From: a virus
Lineage: Duplodnaviria > Caudoviricetes
DNA: 44,096 nt
IMG/VR virus record: IMGVR_UViG_3300037461_000433
Span: 1 to 44,096 of that record
Reading direction: 5' to 3' (one strand)
Under the pieces are notes generated by a model that made no database searches, had not been told where the DNA came from, and saw nothing but the letters and a program-made list of their open reading frames with translations. Shown one piece after another: positions 21,498 to 37,064 of this stretch. Position numbers and translations under genes: made by a program. How positions within the stretch are numbered: the first letter of the stretch is position 1; every line of letters begins with the position of its first letter.

Positions 21498-21565
21498 CGC
21501 ATTTCCTCCTCTTCATTTTTCCGGTGGTTTATTATAGACATACACAATGTATATCTTTGGTCATA

Positions 21566-21594
21566 AGTATACATTATGATTTAGGGTTTGTCAA
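21566..21594 (-). promoter_or_regulatory. Sigma70 promoter TTGACA-17-TATACT driving the late arm
   Basis: Near-consensus boxes read directly. Confidence 0.75.
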
Positions 21595-22023
21595 ATTTAT
21601 TTTTCTTTTTTTAGTATACTATATTATAATAGAATTATTCCTTTTCGCTATTTGTTATAGAGATTCGCGGGGGTGGTCGGCGCGGTGTGAGAGTTAAGAA
21701 TGTTTTCAGCGCGCAGAACTTCCTCCCCCTTTGGGTCGCCTGGGGGGCCTGGATATTCTATTCGCTGATTAGAATATTTATTTATATAGAGCCGGCCCGA
21801 TACAGGGTCATGGGTACACGTACGCGCCTGATGTATGGGTACAAGGTGAGGGCATGATCTCCGCGCGAGGTATAACAAATAGAGAATATACGGCGTGGCT
21901 TGACATTAGAGCGACGATTGACAAATAGCGAATGGTATCGCATGGGGTAAATTGAGCATAGCAAAAATGGAATATAGTGAATTTACCGTCGGACGGCCCG
22001 ACGACAAACCGATAATCGCAAAA

Positions 22024-22134
22024 TGTAAAATGTATATATGTATGTATGTATACCCTTTTTCCTATATAGTATATAAAAAATAATAAAAGTATAGGGCATA
22101 CAAAATATACATCTATACACATATACATTTTACA
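22024..22134. repeat. 29-bp imperfect inverted repeat (26/29) built from TATAC units around an AT-rich spacer; candidate origin or packaging site
   Basis: 22024-22052 versus 22106-22134, inside the ~930-bp noncoding region. Confidence 0.6.
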
Positions 22135-22352
22135 AGGTAATACCCTGTGTATACTACCAAGCAAATCGTTTGTTTTTCACCAAAAAAAATAATCTCAAAA
22201 AATAAAAATACCTAAAAAACGTGTTTTTTCGGATTTTAGTATACACATATACACTCAAATAATATTACCAAAAAATCCCAAAAAATCCCCTCCCGACGGC
22301 AAACAGCGAAAACAATACCACAAATACAGAAAACAAATATCAAAAATAACCA

Positions 22353-22380
22353 TTGACAAATAGCGAATAAATGCTATACT
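22353..22380 (+). promoter_or_regulatory. Strong early sigma70 promoter TTGACA-16-TATACT with extended -10 TG and A-tracts upstream
   Basis: Read directly. It overlaps the ORF-track ATG at 22371, which is therefore unlikely to be the real start. Confidence 0.8.
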
Positions 22381-22427: not shown

Positions 22428-23009
22428 ATGGACTTCAACCGAATCAAAGGCCAAGAACACGCAAAGCGTGGCCTCGAAATTGCACTCGCCGGAGGGCATA
22501 GTGTTTTGTTAGTTTCACCACCACAAATAGACACGGAACGCTTGACAAAGGCCACAAGGGAGATAAATTCCTTGTTATCAATCCGCACAATGACACCTTG
22601 CCCATGCGGATATTTCACTGACCCTAAACACGAATGTACTTGTACGCCGGAGGATATTCACAAACATTTGGCACTTGAGGCCAAAAACGGCACGGCGGAC
22701 ATTTGCCTCGAGGTGCCTCGATTAAACACTGAAATGTTATCAGATAAACGCAGGGGAGAGGCTTCCGCCGTAGTTATTGAACGTATAAAACAAGCACAGA
22801 GCCGAGAAACACCCACAACGTGCGACAAAGAGGCCGACGAGTTGCTAAAGTTGGCTATATTAGAGCTTGGCATATCTTCCCACGCTTATGATAAAATTAT
22901 CCGCGTCGCCGGCACGATAGCCCAGCTTGACGATAAAGCGATAATCGAGGCACACCACATATCCGAGGCGATAAGCTATAGAAGTCTAGACCGCAATTTA
23001 TGGGGTTAA
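22428..23009 (+). CDS. Truncated ComM/YifB (Mg-chelatase-related) homologue lacking ATPase motifs
   Basis: IKGQEHAKRGLEIALAGGH, MTPCPCGY...CTC, AYDKIIRVAGTIAQL, HISEAISYRSLDR match ComM. Walker A is degenerate and the Walker B region is absent. Confidence 0.88.
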   Translation: MDFNRIKGQEHAKRGLEIALAGGHSVLLVSPPQIDTERLTKATREINSLLSIRTMTPCPCGYFTDPKHECTCTPEDIHKHLALEAKNGTADICLEVPRLNTEMLSDKRRGEASAVVIERIKQAQSRETPTTCDKEADELLKLAILELGISSHAYDKIIRVAGTIAQLDDKAIIEAHHISEAISYRSLDRNLWG

Positions 23010-23019
23010 ACACCTAACA

Positions 23020-23082
23020 GGCCGAAACGCCGGAGGCTTCATCTCTGGCGTATAGCGGTATAATTCCGCTACTGATGAGGCC
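23020..23082 (+). ncRNA. Hammerhead ribozyme, type II (HH1); predicted cleavage after A23052 (GUA)
   Basis: GGCC-GAAA-CGCCGGAG/CUCUGGCG-UA-UAGCGG/CCGCUA-CUGAUGA-GGCC: complete core and three stems. Confidence 0.93.
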
Positions 23083-23115: not shown

Positions 23116-23379
23116 ATGGACGTAGCAGAGTTAAAAATAGAAGTATCGAGGCTTCACAAGCTTGACGGCGCAGGGGCGACTAAGGCGTTTGCAGATGTAG
23201 CGATTGCCGACGCCTTTGTTATTAAGGGATTGCGTATAATAGAGGGTAAAGACGGCTTATTCGTATCAATGCCGAGGGAGGAAGGCAAAGATGGCAAATG
23301 GTATAGTACCGTTATACCACTAAAGCGTGAAGTCAAAGACGAAATTGAAAAAGTCGTATTAGAGGTATACGGCGGATAA
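23116..23379 (+). CDS. spoVG: SpoVG-family nucleic-acid-binding protein
   Basis: KAFADVAIADAFVIKGLRIIEGKDGLFVSMP...DGKW...VLEVY. GGAGG RBS. Confidence 0.9.
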   Translation: MDVAELKIEVSRLHKLDGAGATKAFADVAIADAFVIKGLRIIEGKDGLFVSMPREEGKDGKWYSTVIPLKREVKDEIEKVVLEVYGG

Positions 23380-23386
23380 TACAAGA

Positions 23387-23459
23387 GGCCGAAATAATCC
23401 CGGCCGGGATAAACGGCCGGGATTATATATCGGGTACAATACCCGGTACTGACGAGGCC
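23387..23459 (+). ncRNA. Hammerhead ribozyme, type II (HH2); predicted cleavage after A23427 (AUA)
   Basis: GGCC-GAAA, perfect 12-bp stem III, UA, 9-bp stem I, CUGACGA-GGCC. Confidence 0.93.
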
Positions 23460-23495: not shown

Positions 23496-24161
23496 ATGGA
23501 CTACGAAAAGCAGAGGGAAGTGGAACACGCGAGGAACGCCGAGATCCGCGCGAAGATCGAAAAGGCCGGGGAGATATTGAAATTCAAGGCCGAAAAGCCG
23601 GACGAGAACTCCAAATTTGATTGCCGGGTATACCTTAATAATGAGGCCGGGGAAAAGCTGTATATCTATTTTTCGGCCGGATATGGTAATAAACGCGTGA
23701 ATGTTTCCGGGGTATACCCACGGAACGCGGACGGAAGTTATGCCGGGGACGTCTACTATACCCTAGAGGAACGCGCAAAAGGTATCGGACAGGCAAATTA
23801 CGGACAAGTACCACACCCGACAATCACGATCAGCCCGGACAAAACGCCGGAGCAAATCGCCAGGGACATCGAAAAGCGGTTTTTGCCGGACTATCGCGAT
23901 TACCGCGCGCGCGTTCAAGCCGTCGTTGACGCGCATAACGATTATGAATCGACGACAGCCGCATCATTGTTGGCGGTAAAAGGCGCGCAGTTGACCGAAT
24001 ACGAAGCGCGCGAGCGTAAATTCTCGGCGTATGCCGTGCCGGAGGAGTACTCCGGCGCCAGGTATGAAGTAAAAGCAAGCCAGAAAGAGATCGATATAGA
24101 TATTCACAATATCACCATTGACCAAGCGCGCGCTATAATCGCGCTTATAACGAAGAAATAA
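23496..24161 (+). CDS. Early hypothetical protein (221 aa) flanked by HH2 and HH3
   Basis: ORF with GAGGAGG RBS. Its stop lies 3 nt before HH3. Confidence 0.8.
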   Translation: MDYEKQREVEHARNAEIRAKIEKAGEILKFKAEKPDENSKFDCRVYLNNEAGEKLYIYFSAGYGNKRVNVSGVYPRNADGSYAGDVYYTLEERAKGIGQANYGQVPHPTITISPDKTPEQIARDIEKRFLPDYRDYRARVQAVVDAHNDYESTTAASLLAVKGAQLTEYEARERKFSAYAVPEEYSGARYEVKASQKEIDIDIHNITIDQARAIIALITKK

Positions 24162-24164
24162 AGA

Positions 24165-24229
24165 GGCCGAAACGGCGCACGCCGGGAGGACGCGCGCCGT
24201 CTGGGCGTTATGCGCCCATTGACAAGGCC
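24165..24229 (+). ncRNA. Hammerhead ribozyme, type II (HH3), U3-A8 core variant; predicted cleavage after C24201 (GUC)
   Basis: GGCC-GAAA-CGGCGC/GCGCCG-UC-UGGGCG/CGCCCA-UUGACAA-GGCC. Confidence 0.85.
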
Positions 24230-24383: not shown

Positions 24384-24704
24384 ATGACAAAGGAAGAGAT
24401 GAAAAAAGCACTGGAAGCCGGGCAGATCAAATTGATCCGGGCCGGATCCGGGTATAGTAAAGAATATCGCGCAAGTTATGATCGATATAGTTTATATGTA
24501 GGCGATCATAAAATTGATCACCATAATACGCCGTGGATATCGGAGCACGCCTATTATGTCAAGAGATCCGAAACTTTATCGATGACGGTCTGGGGCATGA
24601 GCCAGGAATTTGAAGCGAAGTATGTCCTTGTGGGCCTGGTGTGTCCGGGAATCAGTTGTGAAGATAATAATCGCATAATGCGGCAGATTGCCGTGTTATA
24701 TTAA
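24384..24704 (+). CDS. Early hypothetical protein
   Basis: ORF with AGGAGG RBS. Confidence 0.7.
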   Translation: MTKEEMKKALEAGQIKLIRAGSGYSKEYRASYDRYSLYVGDHKIDHHNTPWISEHAYYVKRSETLSMTVWGMSQEFEAKYVLVGLVCPGISCEDNNRIMRQIAVLY

Positions 24705-35224: not shown

Positions 35225-35670
35225 ACATAATAGGAATAGACCCCGGCTGGAGCGGAGGGGTTGCGTACTTAGGTAGACTCGGGACAGAGGCAAAAGGATT
35301 TACGAATATGACGGAGTACGATATTTGGAAAACGATAACTGAAATTTGTCATAAAGATGTTATCTGTTACATGGAGAAGGTCCACGCCATGCCCGGGCAG
35401 GGAGTGACGAGCATGTTCAAATTCGGGCATAACTACGGCTTTGTTAGGGCTTGCGTTATGTCAACCCTTACCCCCATAATAGACGTAAGCCCGATGAAGT
35501 GGCAGACAGCGCTCGGCTGTCTTACAAAGGGGGATAAGAATATAACAAAGGCAAGGGCGCAGCAGTGGTTCCCGAAAGTAAAAGTAACCCACGCTATCGC
35601 CGACGCTCTACTAATAGCAGAGTACGGCAGAAGAACTGAGGTAAAAGACGAAAGGATAAAATTTATATGA
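35221..35670 (+). CDS. RuvC-like Holliday junction resolvase
   Basis: IGIDPG, MEKVHAMPGQGVTSMFKFG, ADALLIAEYG. Confidence 0.88.
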   Translation: MNIIGIDPGWSGGVAYLGRLGTEAKGFTNMTEYDIWKTITEICHKDVICYMEKVHAMPGQGVTSMFKFGHNYGFVRACVMSTLTPIIDVSPMKWQTALGCLTKGDKNITKARAQQWFPKVKVTHAIADALLIAEYGRRTEVKDERIKFI

Positions 35671-37064
35671 AACTAAGCGTGGCGATGATTGTGAAAAATG
35701 AGGAGAGTTGTCTCGAGAACTGCCTGAAATCTTTAGAAGGGCTCGTAGACGAGATCGTTATTTGTGATACCGGGTCGAAGGATAGAACTGTCGAGATAGC
35801 AAAAAAGTACACCAACAAGGTATTCACAGATTATAAGTGGGAGGATAGCTTCTGTAAAGCCCGCAACTATGCCCTCTCAAAATGCACAGGGGACTGGGTT
35901 CTATCTATCGACGCCGACGAAATAATGTTAGATGGTGGTATCGAGAGTATCCGAAAGACCATCGCTGATAACCCTAACGAGTTTTCTCTGAGCGTCACCA
36001 TGCAAAATGCCGGCAACCCTAACACCACTAACTTATTCCCCAAAGTATTTAAGCGTTGTAAAGAAGTTTTTTGGATGGGTGCGGCGCATAACTACATAAC
36101 TAAACGCGCGAATATACACTCCGGCGCTACGATAGTGTACGGGTATAGCAAAGCCCACAAAGGGGATCCGGACAGAACCCTACGCATATTAAAGGCAGAG
36201 GTAGAGAAGGATAGAACTCTCGTAAGAGAAACATTCTATCTCGCGAGGGAATACTACTACCGCAAAGACTATACTACCGCAGTGTATTGGTACGACGAGT
36301 ACCTAAAGATAGCCACGTGGACCCCGGAGATAGCCGACGCTTACCTCATGCGCGCCCGATGTCTGTGGCAATTACAGAGGGGCGAAGAAGCCCGCCACTC
36401 ATGCTATAAAGCCATCCTTTACAACGCCGACTTCAAAGAAGCGCTTCTGTTTATGGCGGATATGGTACACACCCGTAACCGCGACAACTGGCTCATGTTC
36501 GCTGAGATAGTAGAAAATAAAAACGTGCTATTTGTCCGTAACCGCGCTGAGCTATCCCCGGACTTCTATGGTAAACTCCCTGATGGAGAGGCGCGATACC
36601 TTAATATCTACGAAAAAGTACAGGAACTCGTAGGTAAGACTACGGAAATCCTGGACATAGGCTGCGGCCCGAAGGCCCCCTTAGCTAAATACTTTGACAG
36701 TTACGATGGTTTCGATCTCTGTAAGAACCCTATGCGAATTGCAGATGCGTACGACCCTAAAAGTTATACTCGGATAGACTATTCCGGGTATACTTGTCTC
36801 GAGGTCCTTGAGCATTTATCGGACGATTTGAAAGTCCTCGCCAATATTCCAAAAGGTAAGCCGATAATATTTTCTGTGCCGTCCTTTTACTGCCCCGGGC
36901 ACGTTCGGGTGTATACGCTAAAGACTTTAACCTGGAGATTCCGTAATCTACTCGACATCCATTGGTCGACAAGATTTAATTGGTGCAAAGACAAACATCA
37001 ATGGGAGGAAGGGGGCGAGGAAACACCGGAGTACATAACACTTTGTGTCGCAGTTAAAAAATAA
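35667..37064 (+). CDS. GT2 glycosyltransferase + TPR + class I SAM methyltransferase-like fusion
   Basis: MIVKNEE, DTGSKDRT, ARNYAL, SIDADE; TPR-like FYLAREYY; LDIGCG, CLEVLEHL, SVPSF...HVR. Confidence 0.9.
   Translation: MKLSVAMIVKNEESCLENCLKSLEGLVDEIVICDTGSKDRTVEIAKKYTNKVFTDYKWEDSFCKARNYALSKCTGDWVLSIDADEIMLDGGIESIRKTIADNPNEFSLSVTMQNAGNPNTTNLFPKVFKRCKEVFWMGAAHNYITKRANIHSGATIVYGYSKAHKGDPDRTLRILKAEVEKDRTLVRETFYLAREYYYRKDYTTAVYWYDEYLKIATWTPEIADAYLMRARCLWQLQRGEEARHSCYKAILYNADFKEALLFMADMVHTRNRDNWLMFAEIVENKNVLFVRNRAELSPDFYGKLPDGEARYLNIYEKVQELVGKTTEILDIGCGPKAPLAKYFDSYDGFDLCKNPMRIADAYDPKSYTRIDYSGYTCLEVLEHLSDDLKVLANIPKGKPIIFSVPSFYCPGHVRVYTLKTLTWRFRNLLDIHWSTRFNWCKDKHQWEEGGEETPEYITLCVAVKK

What the first reader, a model, noticed from the sequence alone, without database searches (positions are those of the whole stretch)
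22428..23009. First early gene is a catalytically gutted mini-ComM, a candidate dominant-negative host-helicase mimic
Seen in sequence: 193 aa that keep the ComM/YifB pre-Walker segment (KGQEHAKRGLEIALAGGH), the CPCG...CxC zinc motif and the C-terminal lid (AYDKIIRVAGTIA...HISEAISYR). Relative to the family consensus as I recall it, GPPGxGK has become SPPQIDTE, the Walker B region and N-terminal Lon-like domain are absent, LLDRID has become NGTADI and SARAY has become SSHAY. The ORF is intact and sits right behind the strongest promoter, which is unlike random decay. Established: ComM is a hexameric helicase of about 500 aa promoting branch migration in natural transformation, and mobile elements often disrupt comM. 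Inference: it poisons the host ComM ring or acts as a decoy.
Basis: partly seen in the sequence, partly recalled or inferred. Interest (0 to 1): 0.75.

Follow-up and report, generated by a model that had tools for sequence, protein, structure and literature searches.

The report
Phage mini-ComM, likely DprA-binding decoy
This phage gene is a shrunken, motor-less copy of the bacterial recombination helicase ComM, and related viruses appear to have built it more than once; it likely works by occupying the docking site on the host protein DprA that normally recruits the real helicase.

Summary
Window 22428-23009 encodes a 193-aa ComM lacking the Lon domain and about 103 residues of the ATPase core (Walker B, DNA loops). 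It is no decayed relic: 63 Omnitrophota-type and 67 mostly Chloroflexota-type proteins share the architecture, synonymous sites are saturated, and the matching Atlas clusters are 65-83% viral. The two sets likely arose separately (AU p=0.009), yet lost and kept the same positions (rho 0.78). Catalytic and ring residues decay. The zinc finger and C-terminal domain are kept, including L147 and R189, the inferred equivalents of ComM's published DprA-contact residues. YraN binding (0.2) and use by the phage itself (0.13) remain open. The likely host is Omnitrophota, whose spoVG-yraN-comM operon also supplied the neighbouring phage spoVG. Three type II hammerhead motifs separate the first genes. 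The scan reported the same family and the decoy idea before on another genome (e1-6179018). No paper found describes it.

The parts
22353..22380 (+). sigma-70-like promoter match, TTGACA-16-TG-TATACT, behind an A-rich stretch
   Evidence: 11/12, extended -10; for the rest of the window; activity not tested
22428..23009 (+). mini-ComM gene, 193 aa (the upstream ATG at 22371 lies inside the promoter match)
22428..22514 (+). pre-Walker helix and strand 1 (aa 1-29), kept
   Evidence: mean retention 0.88 at 11 host-invariant positions
22515..22538 (+). degenerate Walker A (aa 30-37); the ~103-aa internal deletion follows within the next ~15 codons
22596..22658 (+). C4 zinc-finger insert (aa 57-77), kept
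   Evidence: retention 0.96; four Cys invariant in both families
22824..23006 (+). Mg_chelatase_C domain and tail (aa 133-193), the proposed DprA-binding surface; L147 = 22866-22868, R189 = 22992-22994; arginine finger replaced by H152
   Evidence: PMC12012524
23020..23082 (+). type II hammerhead motif 1; predicted cut after 23052
   Evidence: not scored by Rfam
23116..23379 (+). spoVG, up to 79.5% identical to SpoVG of the host-type spoVG-yraN-comM operon
23387..23459 (+). type II hammerhead motif 2; predicted cut after 23427
   Evidence: (25.2 bits, below the gathering score of 37)
23496..24161 (+). 221-aa ORF of no known family between hammerheads 2 and 3
   Evidence: no Pfam, PHROG or NCBIfam hit
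24165..24229 (+). type II hammerhead motif 3 with the U3-A8 core variant; predicted cut after 24201
   Evidence: variant described in PMC3088659

Best explanation
The gene is a phage-captured ComM stripped of its Lon ring, ATPase core and DNA-binding loops, and it likely acts as a decoy that binds the winged-helix domain of host DprA, which would stop DprA from loading real ComM (and with it the YraN nuclease) on recombination intermediates. Shown: the architecture, selection, viral distribution, and which residues are kept or lost. From papers: DprA's winged helix binds ComM's C-terminal domain and recruits it. Inferred: that the mini protein is a ring-less monomer, that it binds DprA, that the host is Omnitrophota, that it is made early, and that the phage gains by keeping ComM/YraN off its own ssDNA or D-loop intermediates.
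For: (1) Family. 63 homologues with near-full coverage were aligned with the query. A second set gave 67 minis among 120 listed hits. The three nearest Atlas clusters (~200 aa; 133, 94 and 142 members) are 65-83% viral. Mini architecture was seen in 8 of 17 viral loci, 8 of 80 metagenome loci and 0 of 80 cellular-genome loci. (2) Selection. Window against 10 mini and 9 host genes: pS 0.75-0.99 (saturated); C-domain dN 0.12-0.28. (3) Retention at host-invariant positions, 63 minis against 20 hosts: zinc finger 0.96, tail 0.94, helix ending ELGIS 0.90, against Walker A 0.48, SKISGPLLDRID 0.33, sensor-1 0.24, FNAHL helix 0.03. The SAR arginine is kept in 36%. (4) Replicate. The Chloroflexota-type set shows the same pattern (rho 0.78 over 92 positions; positions are not independent), and one clade of all minis is rejected (AU p=0.009). 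(5) The published DprA-contact residues ComM-Vc L455 and R497 (PMC12012524) map, through E. coli YifB L454/R496, to L147 (95%) and R189 (100%). (6) The tail 188-193 has low confidence in the monomer model, yet it is 82-100% conserved. (7) Putative hosts have the target: 38 of 44 genomes have DprA over the cut-off, and 30 of 30 fetched loci end in a winged-helix-like domain (Pfam DprA_WH in 2 of 2 tested). (8) Mini C-domains match different host subclades (60, 4, 3, 3 and 1 of 71), as expected of a species-specific interface.
Against: No experiment on this family was found. The Vibrio sequence was not seen, so the L455/R497 mapping rests on a +1 offset from E. coli YifB, and R497E only partly weakened binding in the paper. 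YraN is predicted to use the same Pfam domain (10.1101/558379), so conservation of this domain does not single out DprA. Nothing here ties the strongly kept zinc finger to DprA. 44 of 63 Omnitrophota-type minis keep GxxxxGK, more than a pure decoy needs. Part of the retention may be fold maintenance. No tyrosine integrase or serine recombinase was found in the window or in the three other near-complete carriers, so the usual motive of protecting a prophage from curing is weak and the benefit is inferred.
Confidence: 0.5

Rival explanations
1. It binds the host nuclease YraN, alone or together with DprA, and sequesters it or tethers it without a motor.
For: YraN-ComM binding was shown by two-hybrid (10.1101/2024.02.06.579203). 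A coevolution study pairs PF02021 (YraN) with PF13335, the domain kept here (10.1101/558379). yraN lies directly upstream of comM in 5 of 5 host-type genomes and is in 0 of 17 mini loci. The kept zinc finger needs an explanation.
Against: I found no residue-level YraN site on ComM, whereas the two mapped DprA contacts are kept. The coevolution paper itself drew no conclusion on this pair.
Confidence: 0.2
2. The phage uses it positively, as an adaptor that captures DprA (with RecA) or works with the co-captured SpoVG for its own ssDNA protection or recombination.
For: spoVG from the same host operon accompanies the gene in 7 of 17 mini loci (6 distinct), adjacent in the window and L102 and one short ORF away in L103. 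Phage SpoVGs nest among host-operon SpoVGs. The carriers lack integrases and DprA.
Against: No added domain or new conserved surface that could bind a phage partner was seen in either alignment. Two Chloroflexota-type carriers have no spoVG.
Confidence: 0.13
3. Dominant-negative subunit that enters and poisons the host ComM hexamer.
For: The model keeps the ComM fold (pLDDT 89.6; top Foldseek hit 8rxd, TMq 0.71). Many relatives keep a P-loop. Dead subunits poisoning AAA+ rings is textbook (recalled).
Against: The Lon tier is missing. The trans arginine (Legionella R463 = H152 here) is kept in 36%, the region holding sensor 3 is deleted in all, and SKISGPLLDRID is kept at 0.33. The best-kept domain does not contact its neighbours' copies in the ring.
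Confidence: 0.12
4. Remnant of integration at comM, or a decaying captured gene with no function.
For: Mobile elements often split comM (PMC12378983). 3' comM fragments occur among the fetched loci (L127-L129, L133, L141, L168).
Against: Those remnants lack the pre-Walker segment, while the minis keep both ends and lose the middle. Synonymous sites are saturated against host genes while the C-domain stays 72-84% identical. About 130 intact relatives were seen. The window has no integrase.
Confidence: 0.03

Closest known systems
ComM/YifB helicase (TIGR00368; Legionella ComM, PDB 8rxd; PMC11612176)
   Same: Pre-Walker helix, zinc-finger insert and Mg_chelatase_C domain; same predicted fold; 51% identity over the C-terminal 160 query residues to an Omnitrophota-type ComM.
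   Different: No Lon domain, Walker B, DNA-binding loops or arginine finger; 193 against ~510 aa; 111.7 bits against the cut-off of 362.4; carried by phages.
DprA-ComM recruitment interface (PMC12012524)
   Same: The ComM half of this interface is what the mini protein keeps best.
   Different: Described only for cellular full-length ComM; no viral mimic is mentioned in the sections read.
Mobile-element inhibitors of natural transformation: insertion in comM, RocRp, RokLS20, Prx, ComI (review PMC12378983, passages read)
   Same: A mobile element acting on the host transformation pathway; RokLS20 and RocRp are also derived copies of host factors.
   Different: These act by gene disruption, on regulation or on DNA uptake. 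None in the passages read is a protein mimic of the recombination helicase, and most carriers are integrative whereas these phages mostly lack integrases.
Clustered hammerheads between phage genes, such as the triple around ardA (PMC3088659)
   Same: Three type II hammerheads separate single small genes, one with the U3-A8 variant.
   Different: Only the gene content differs. Hammerheads are not a family trait: 1 of 16 other mini loci has an Rfam hammerhead.

Membership tests
ComM/YifB (TIGR00368) | N-terminal Lon-like domain | tested here: not met
   alignment starts at host residue 192
ComM/YifB (TIGR00368) | Walker A GxxxxGK[ST] | tested here: not met
   SPPQIDTE in the window; intact in 26 of 63 and 3 of 67 relatives
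ComM/YifB (TIGR00368) | Walker B glutamate, sensor 3 and DNA-binding loops | tested here: not met
   host motifs at 273, 304 and 319 fall in the deletion; Walker-B-like motif in 0 of 63
ComM/YifB (TIGR00368) | arginine finger (Legionella R463) | tested here: not met
   H152 in the window; Arg in 36% of 63
ComM/YifB (TIGR00368) | zinc-finger insert and Mg_chelatase_C domain | tested here: met
ComM/YifB (TIGR00368) | score above the family cut-off | tested here: not met
   111.7 against 362.4 bits; host control 675.7
ComM/YifB (TIGR00368) | hexameric ATP-driven branch migration | not testable with these tools
   needs biochemistry; the motifs required are absent
DprA-binding ComM surface | residues equivalent to ComM-Vc L455 and R497 | tested here: met
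   L147 (95%) and R189 (100%) via E. coli YifB with an inferred +1 offset
DprA-binding ComM surface | physical binding to the DprA winged helix | not tested
comM integration remnant | one-sided fragment near-identical to host comM beside an integrase | tested here: not met
   both ends kept, synonymous sites saturated, no integrase
Type II hammerhead (RF02276) | core CUGANGA / GAAA / UH with three stems | tested here: met
   3 sites, one with U3-A8; 0 in 100 simulated genomes
Type II hammerhead (RF02276) | Rfam gathering score of 37 bits | tested here: not met
   one site scored 25.2, the other two were not listed
Type II hammerhead (RF02276) | self-cleavage | not testable with these tools
   needs in vitro transcription

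The most novel reading that the evidence does not exclude
The DprA-ComM-YraN module, known only for natural transformation, also restricts phages in Omnitrophota and Chloroflexota by attacking ssDNA or D-loop intermediates. Non-integrating phages have repeatedly answered by carving the host's own comM into a DprA-plugging counter-defence protein that tracks each host's interface.
Probability: 0.25. Interest if true: 0.88.

Novelty: new variant of a known kind. Interest (0 to 1): 0.7.

Why it matters
If right, it is a phage protein inhibitor of the recombination step of natural transformation, made by the same deletion in phages of two phyla. It would imply that DprA-ComM costs phages something even without integration, which bears on the open question raised in PMC12378983 of why mobile elements target comM so often. 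The family also maps which ComM surfaces matter to outside partners (C-terminal domain, tail, zinc finger). It offers a small, testable tool for uncoupling DprA's RecA-loading role from its ComM-loading role.

Tried and rejected
The HMMER search of all representatives was not available either. The single-protein viral scan found nothing; the alignment scan did. Sequencing runs: one holder, possibly the source of this DNA, and no RNA holder listed; laid contigs showed no difference inside the gene. INPHARED phages: 13 records, none covering the query's first 32 residues. BFVD: one hit at E<=0.001, a 478-aa protein. Capsid search in 401 Omnitrophota genomes: 2 weak hits of 23-25% identity, so no related prophage confirms the host. 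Mini alignment in the same 401 genomes: no intact mini among the 150 rows listed, 649 rows unlisted. spoVG scan of viral contigs: 3 loci, one already known. Separate origins within the Omnitrophota-type minis are not supported statistically (AU p=0.147). Hammerheads as a family trait: rejected. A link to ShosTA: that paper has no mention of ComM. Supplement 2 of PMC12012524 showed only statistics rows for the two alleles; its SI appendix, which holds the alignments and models of the interface, was too large to read and may bear on the residue mapping. Literature: ten searches listed no paper on a phage mini-ComM; most subscription papers are outside the library.

Full report
Setting. The window is a 44,096-base virus record rated 100% complete. 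It carries a T7-type portal, capsid, tail and terminase on the minus arm, and Prim-Pol/VapE, SNF2, PolA and a resolvase on the plus arm. The gene is the first ORF of the plus arm, 47 bases behind a sigma-70 match that is the only one of four 11/12 sites with an extended -10. No tyrosine integrase or serine recombinase was found.

Anatomy. The 193-aa product matches the start of Mg_chelatase and Mg_chelatase_C and Legionella ComM 8rxd. Against host-type ComM L110 it begins at residue 192. It lacks about 103 residues between Walker A and the zinc finger (spacing 45 against 147-148), including the motifs at host positions 273, 304 and 319, and about 21 residues around FNAHLE. Legionella R463, the arginine finger in PMC11612176 (outline, passages and section 8 read), aligns to H152. 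An AlphaFold2 model from 64 sequences is confident (pLDDT 89.6) except for residues 188-193, and it matches 8rxd best (TMq 0.71).

It is a family. Of 120 listed hits (184 in all) I aligned the 63 non-self hits with 92-100% coverage and left out the self hit and those with 70-83% coverage, taken to be fragments of full-length ComM. Locus scans gave the mini architecture in 8 of 17 viral, 8 of 80 metagenome and 0 of 80 cellular loci; L001 and L098 are the same DNA. Their neighbours are mostly small same-strand genes. A divergent member (L006) retrieved 67 more minis among 120 listed hits, most ending in a Chloroflexota-like YRP/YRR tail. The three nearest Atlas clusters are about 200 aa and 65-83% viral, on the few members with a record.

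Selection. From the zinc finger onward, the window differs from 10 mini and 9 host genes at 0.75-0.99 of synonymous sites, while C-domain dN is 0.12-0.28. The one mini pair with a finite value gave dN 0.17 and dS 2.2.

Origins and host. A 192-row tree needs 4 changes of the mini label, 3 forced by starred branches. The window's clade of 64 rows nests among ComMs ending RNLWG, of which the named ones are Omnitrophota. On a 50-row subset, one clade of all 18 minis is rejected (AU p=0.009; long branches are in play), but one clade of the 16 Omnitrophota-type minis is not (p=0.147). C-domains of 71 distinct minis match different host groups. L003 is the clearest case: its tail and its SpoVG both side with host L027. 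In host-type genomes the operon is spoVG-yraN-comM, behind a putative sigma/anti-sigma pair (the sigma label is my reading of L110 and of earlier scan notes). SpoVG lies in 7 of 17 mini loci and YraN in 0 of 17; several loci are short. The window's SpoVG is up to 79.5% identical to host-operon copies. The host is therefore inferred; a capsid search in 401 genomes did not confirm it.

What is kept. I compared 63 Omnitrophota-type minis (10 named rows of other clades removed, duplicates merged) with 20 hosts. Mean retention at host-invariant positions was: zinc finger 0.96, terminal segment 0.94, helix to ELGIS 0.90, pre-Walker 0.88, Walker A 0.48, SKISGPLLDRID 0.33, sensor-1 0.24, FNAHL helix 0.03. 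The arginine finger is kept in 36%. A full Walker A survives in 26 of 63 and a Walker B in none. In the second family (42 YRP-type minis of the 67, against 32 hosts) the profile repeats, with rho 0.78 over 92 positions.

Mechanism. PMC12012524 (outline, first part of Results, sections 8-10, Dataset S1 and rows of Dataset S2 read) shows that DprA's winged helix binds ComM's Mg-chelatase domain at L455 and R497, outside the hexamer and DNA interfaces, in a species-specific way, and that this recruits ComM. E. coli YifB has L454 and R496 at the same spacing, and these align to L147 and R189; the +1 offset to Vibrio is inferred. Host-type DprA has the winged helix in 30 of 30 fetched loci, with Glu in 20 and Gln in 10 at the likely E353 position. 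PMC11612176 states that the C-terminal domains do not touch each other in the ring. A protein that keeps this outer domain, tracks the host's version of it and sheds ring and motor parts reads best as a partner-binding decoy. I put DprA at 0.5. YraN binds ComM (10.1101/2024.02.06.579203, passages) and was paired with the same domain by coevolution (10.1101/558379, one passage), so it gets 0.2. Positive use by the phage gets 0.13, ring poisoning 0.12 and a remnant 0.03. The benefit is also inferred: the window and three other near-complete carriers lack integrases and DprA, although G427 is classed as a provirus and L102 has an integrase nearby.

RNA context. Three type II hammerhead motifs follow the first three genes, against none in 100 simulated genomes. 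Rfam scores one, below threshold. This arrangement and the U3-A8 variant are described in PMC3088659 (passages). They would release a near-monocistronic mini-ComM message; cleavage is untested.

Novelty. It is not a ComM by membership. Host-factor mimics on mobile elements are a known kind (PMC12378983, passages), but ten library searches listed no mini-ComM. The scan's note e1-6179018 reached the same DprA-decoy reading on another genome. I had recorded this reading before seeing it, and it is not independent support. This report adds, from its own calls, the two-family convergence statistic, host-subclade tracking, spoVG co-capture and the YraN rival.

Noticed in passing
window 23020-23082, 23387-23459, 24165-24229: Three type II hammerhead motifs with identical GGCC/GGCC stem II separate the first three genes of the rightward arm; the third has the U3-A8 core variant.
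   Followed up: partly
window 23116-23379; L001, L002, L003, L102, L103: Phage spoVG genes nest among SpoVGs of the host spoVG-yraN-comM operon and travel with mini-ComM, while yraN is left behind; SpoVG's role in that operon is unexplained.
   Followed up: partly
window 21918, 22353, 25998: The motif TTGACAAATA occurs three times on the + strand; two copies are full promoter matches, suggesting a repeated early promoter.
   Followed up: no
window 21498-22350: An 850-base gene-free, A/T-skewed stretch between the divergent arms, with skipped repeats near 22026-22055; a candidate genome end or origin. The record has no terminal repeat.
   Followed up: no
L127, L128/L129, L131, L133, L141, L168, L172: 3' comM fragments or duplicated comM ends; L129 has recombinase-like ORFs just upstream. 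These look like ordinary insertions into comM and differ from the mini genes.
   Followed up: partly
L098 5983-12570: The mini gene ends a provirus-classed segment and abuts a helicase and two DNA methylase genes (type III restriction-like) on the opposite strand.
   Followed up: no
L105 403-1269; L007 5983-6897: Minis with longer remnants of the ATPase core (spacing 114 and 79), possible intermediates of the erosion from 148 to about 45.
   Followed up: no
window 23496-24161 and 24384-24704: Small ORFs with no convincing family hit and no homologue among the fetched loci; candidates for further host-takeover proteins.
   Followed up: no
window 35667-37064: Glycosyltransferase family 2 protein with TPR and weak methyltransferase matches, next to the replication genes; possible DNA or surface modification.
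   Followed up: no
L178-L213 (DprA loci): DprA in this Omnitrophota order is short (about 305 aa) and carries a conserved YxYNSLT segment just before the winged helix, a candidate extra contact for ComM.
   Followed up: no
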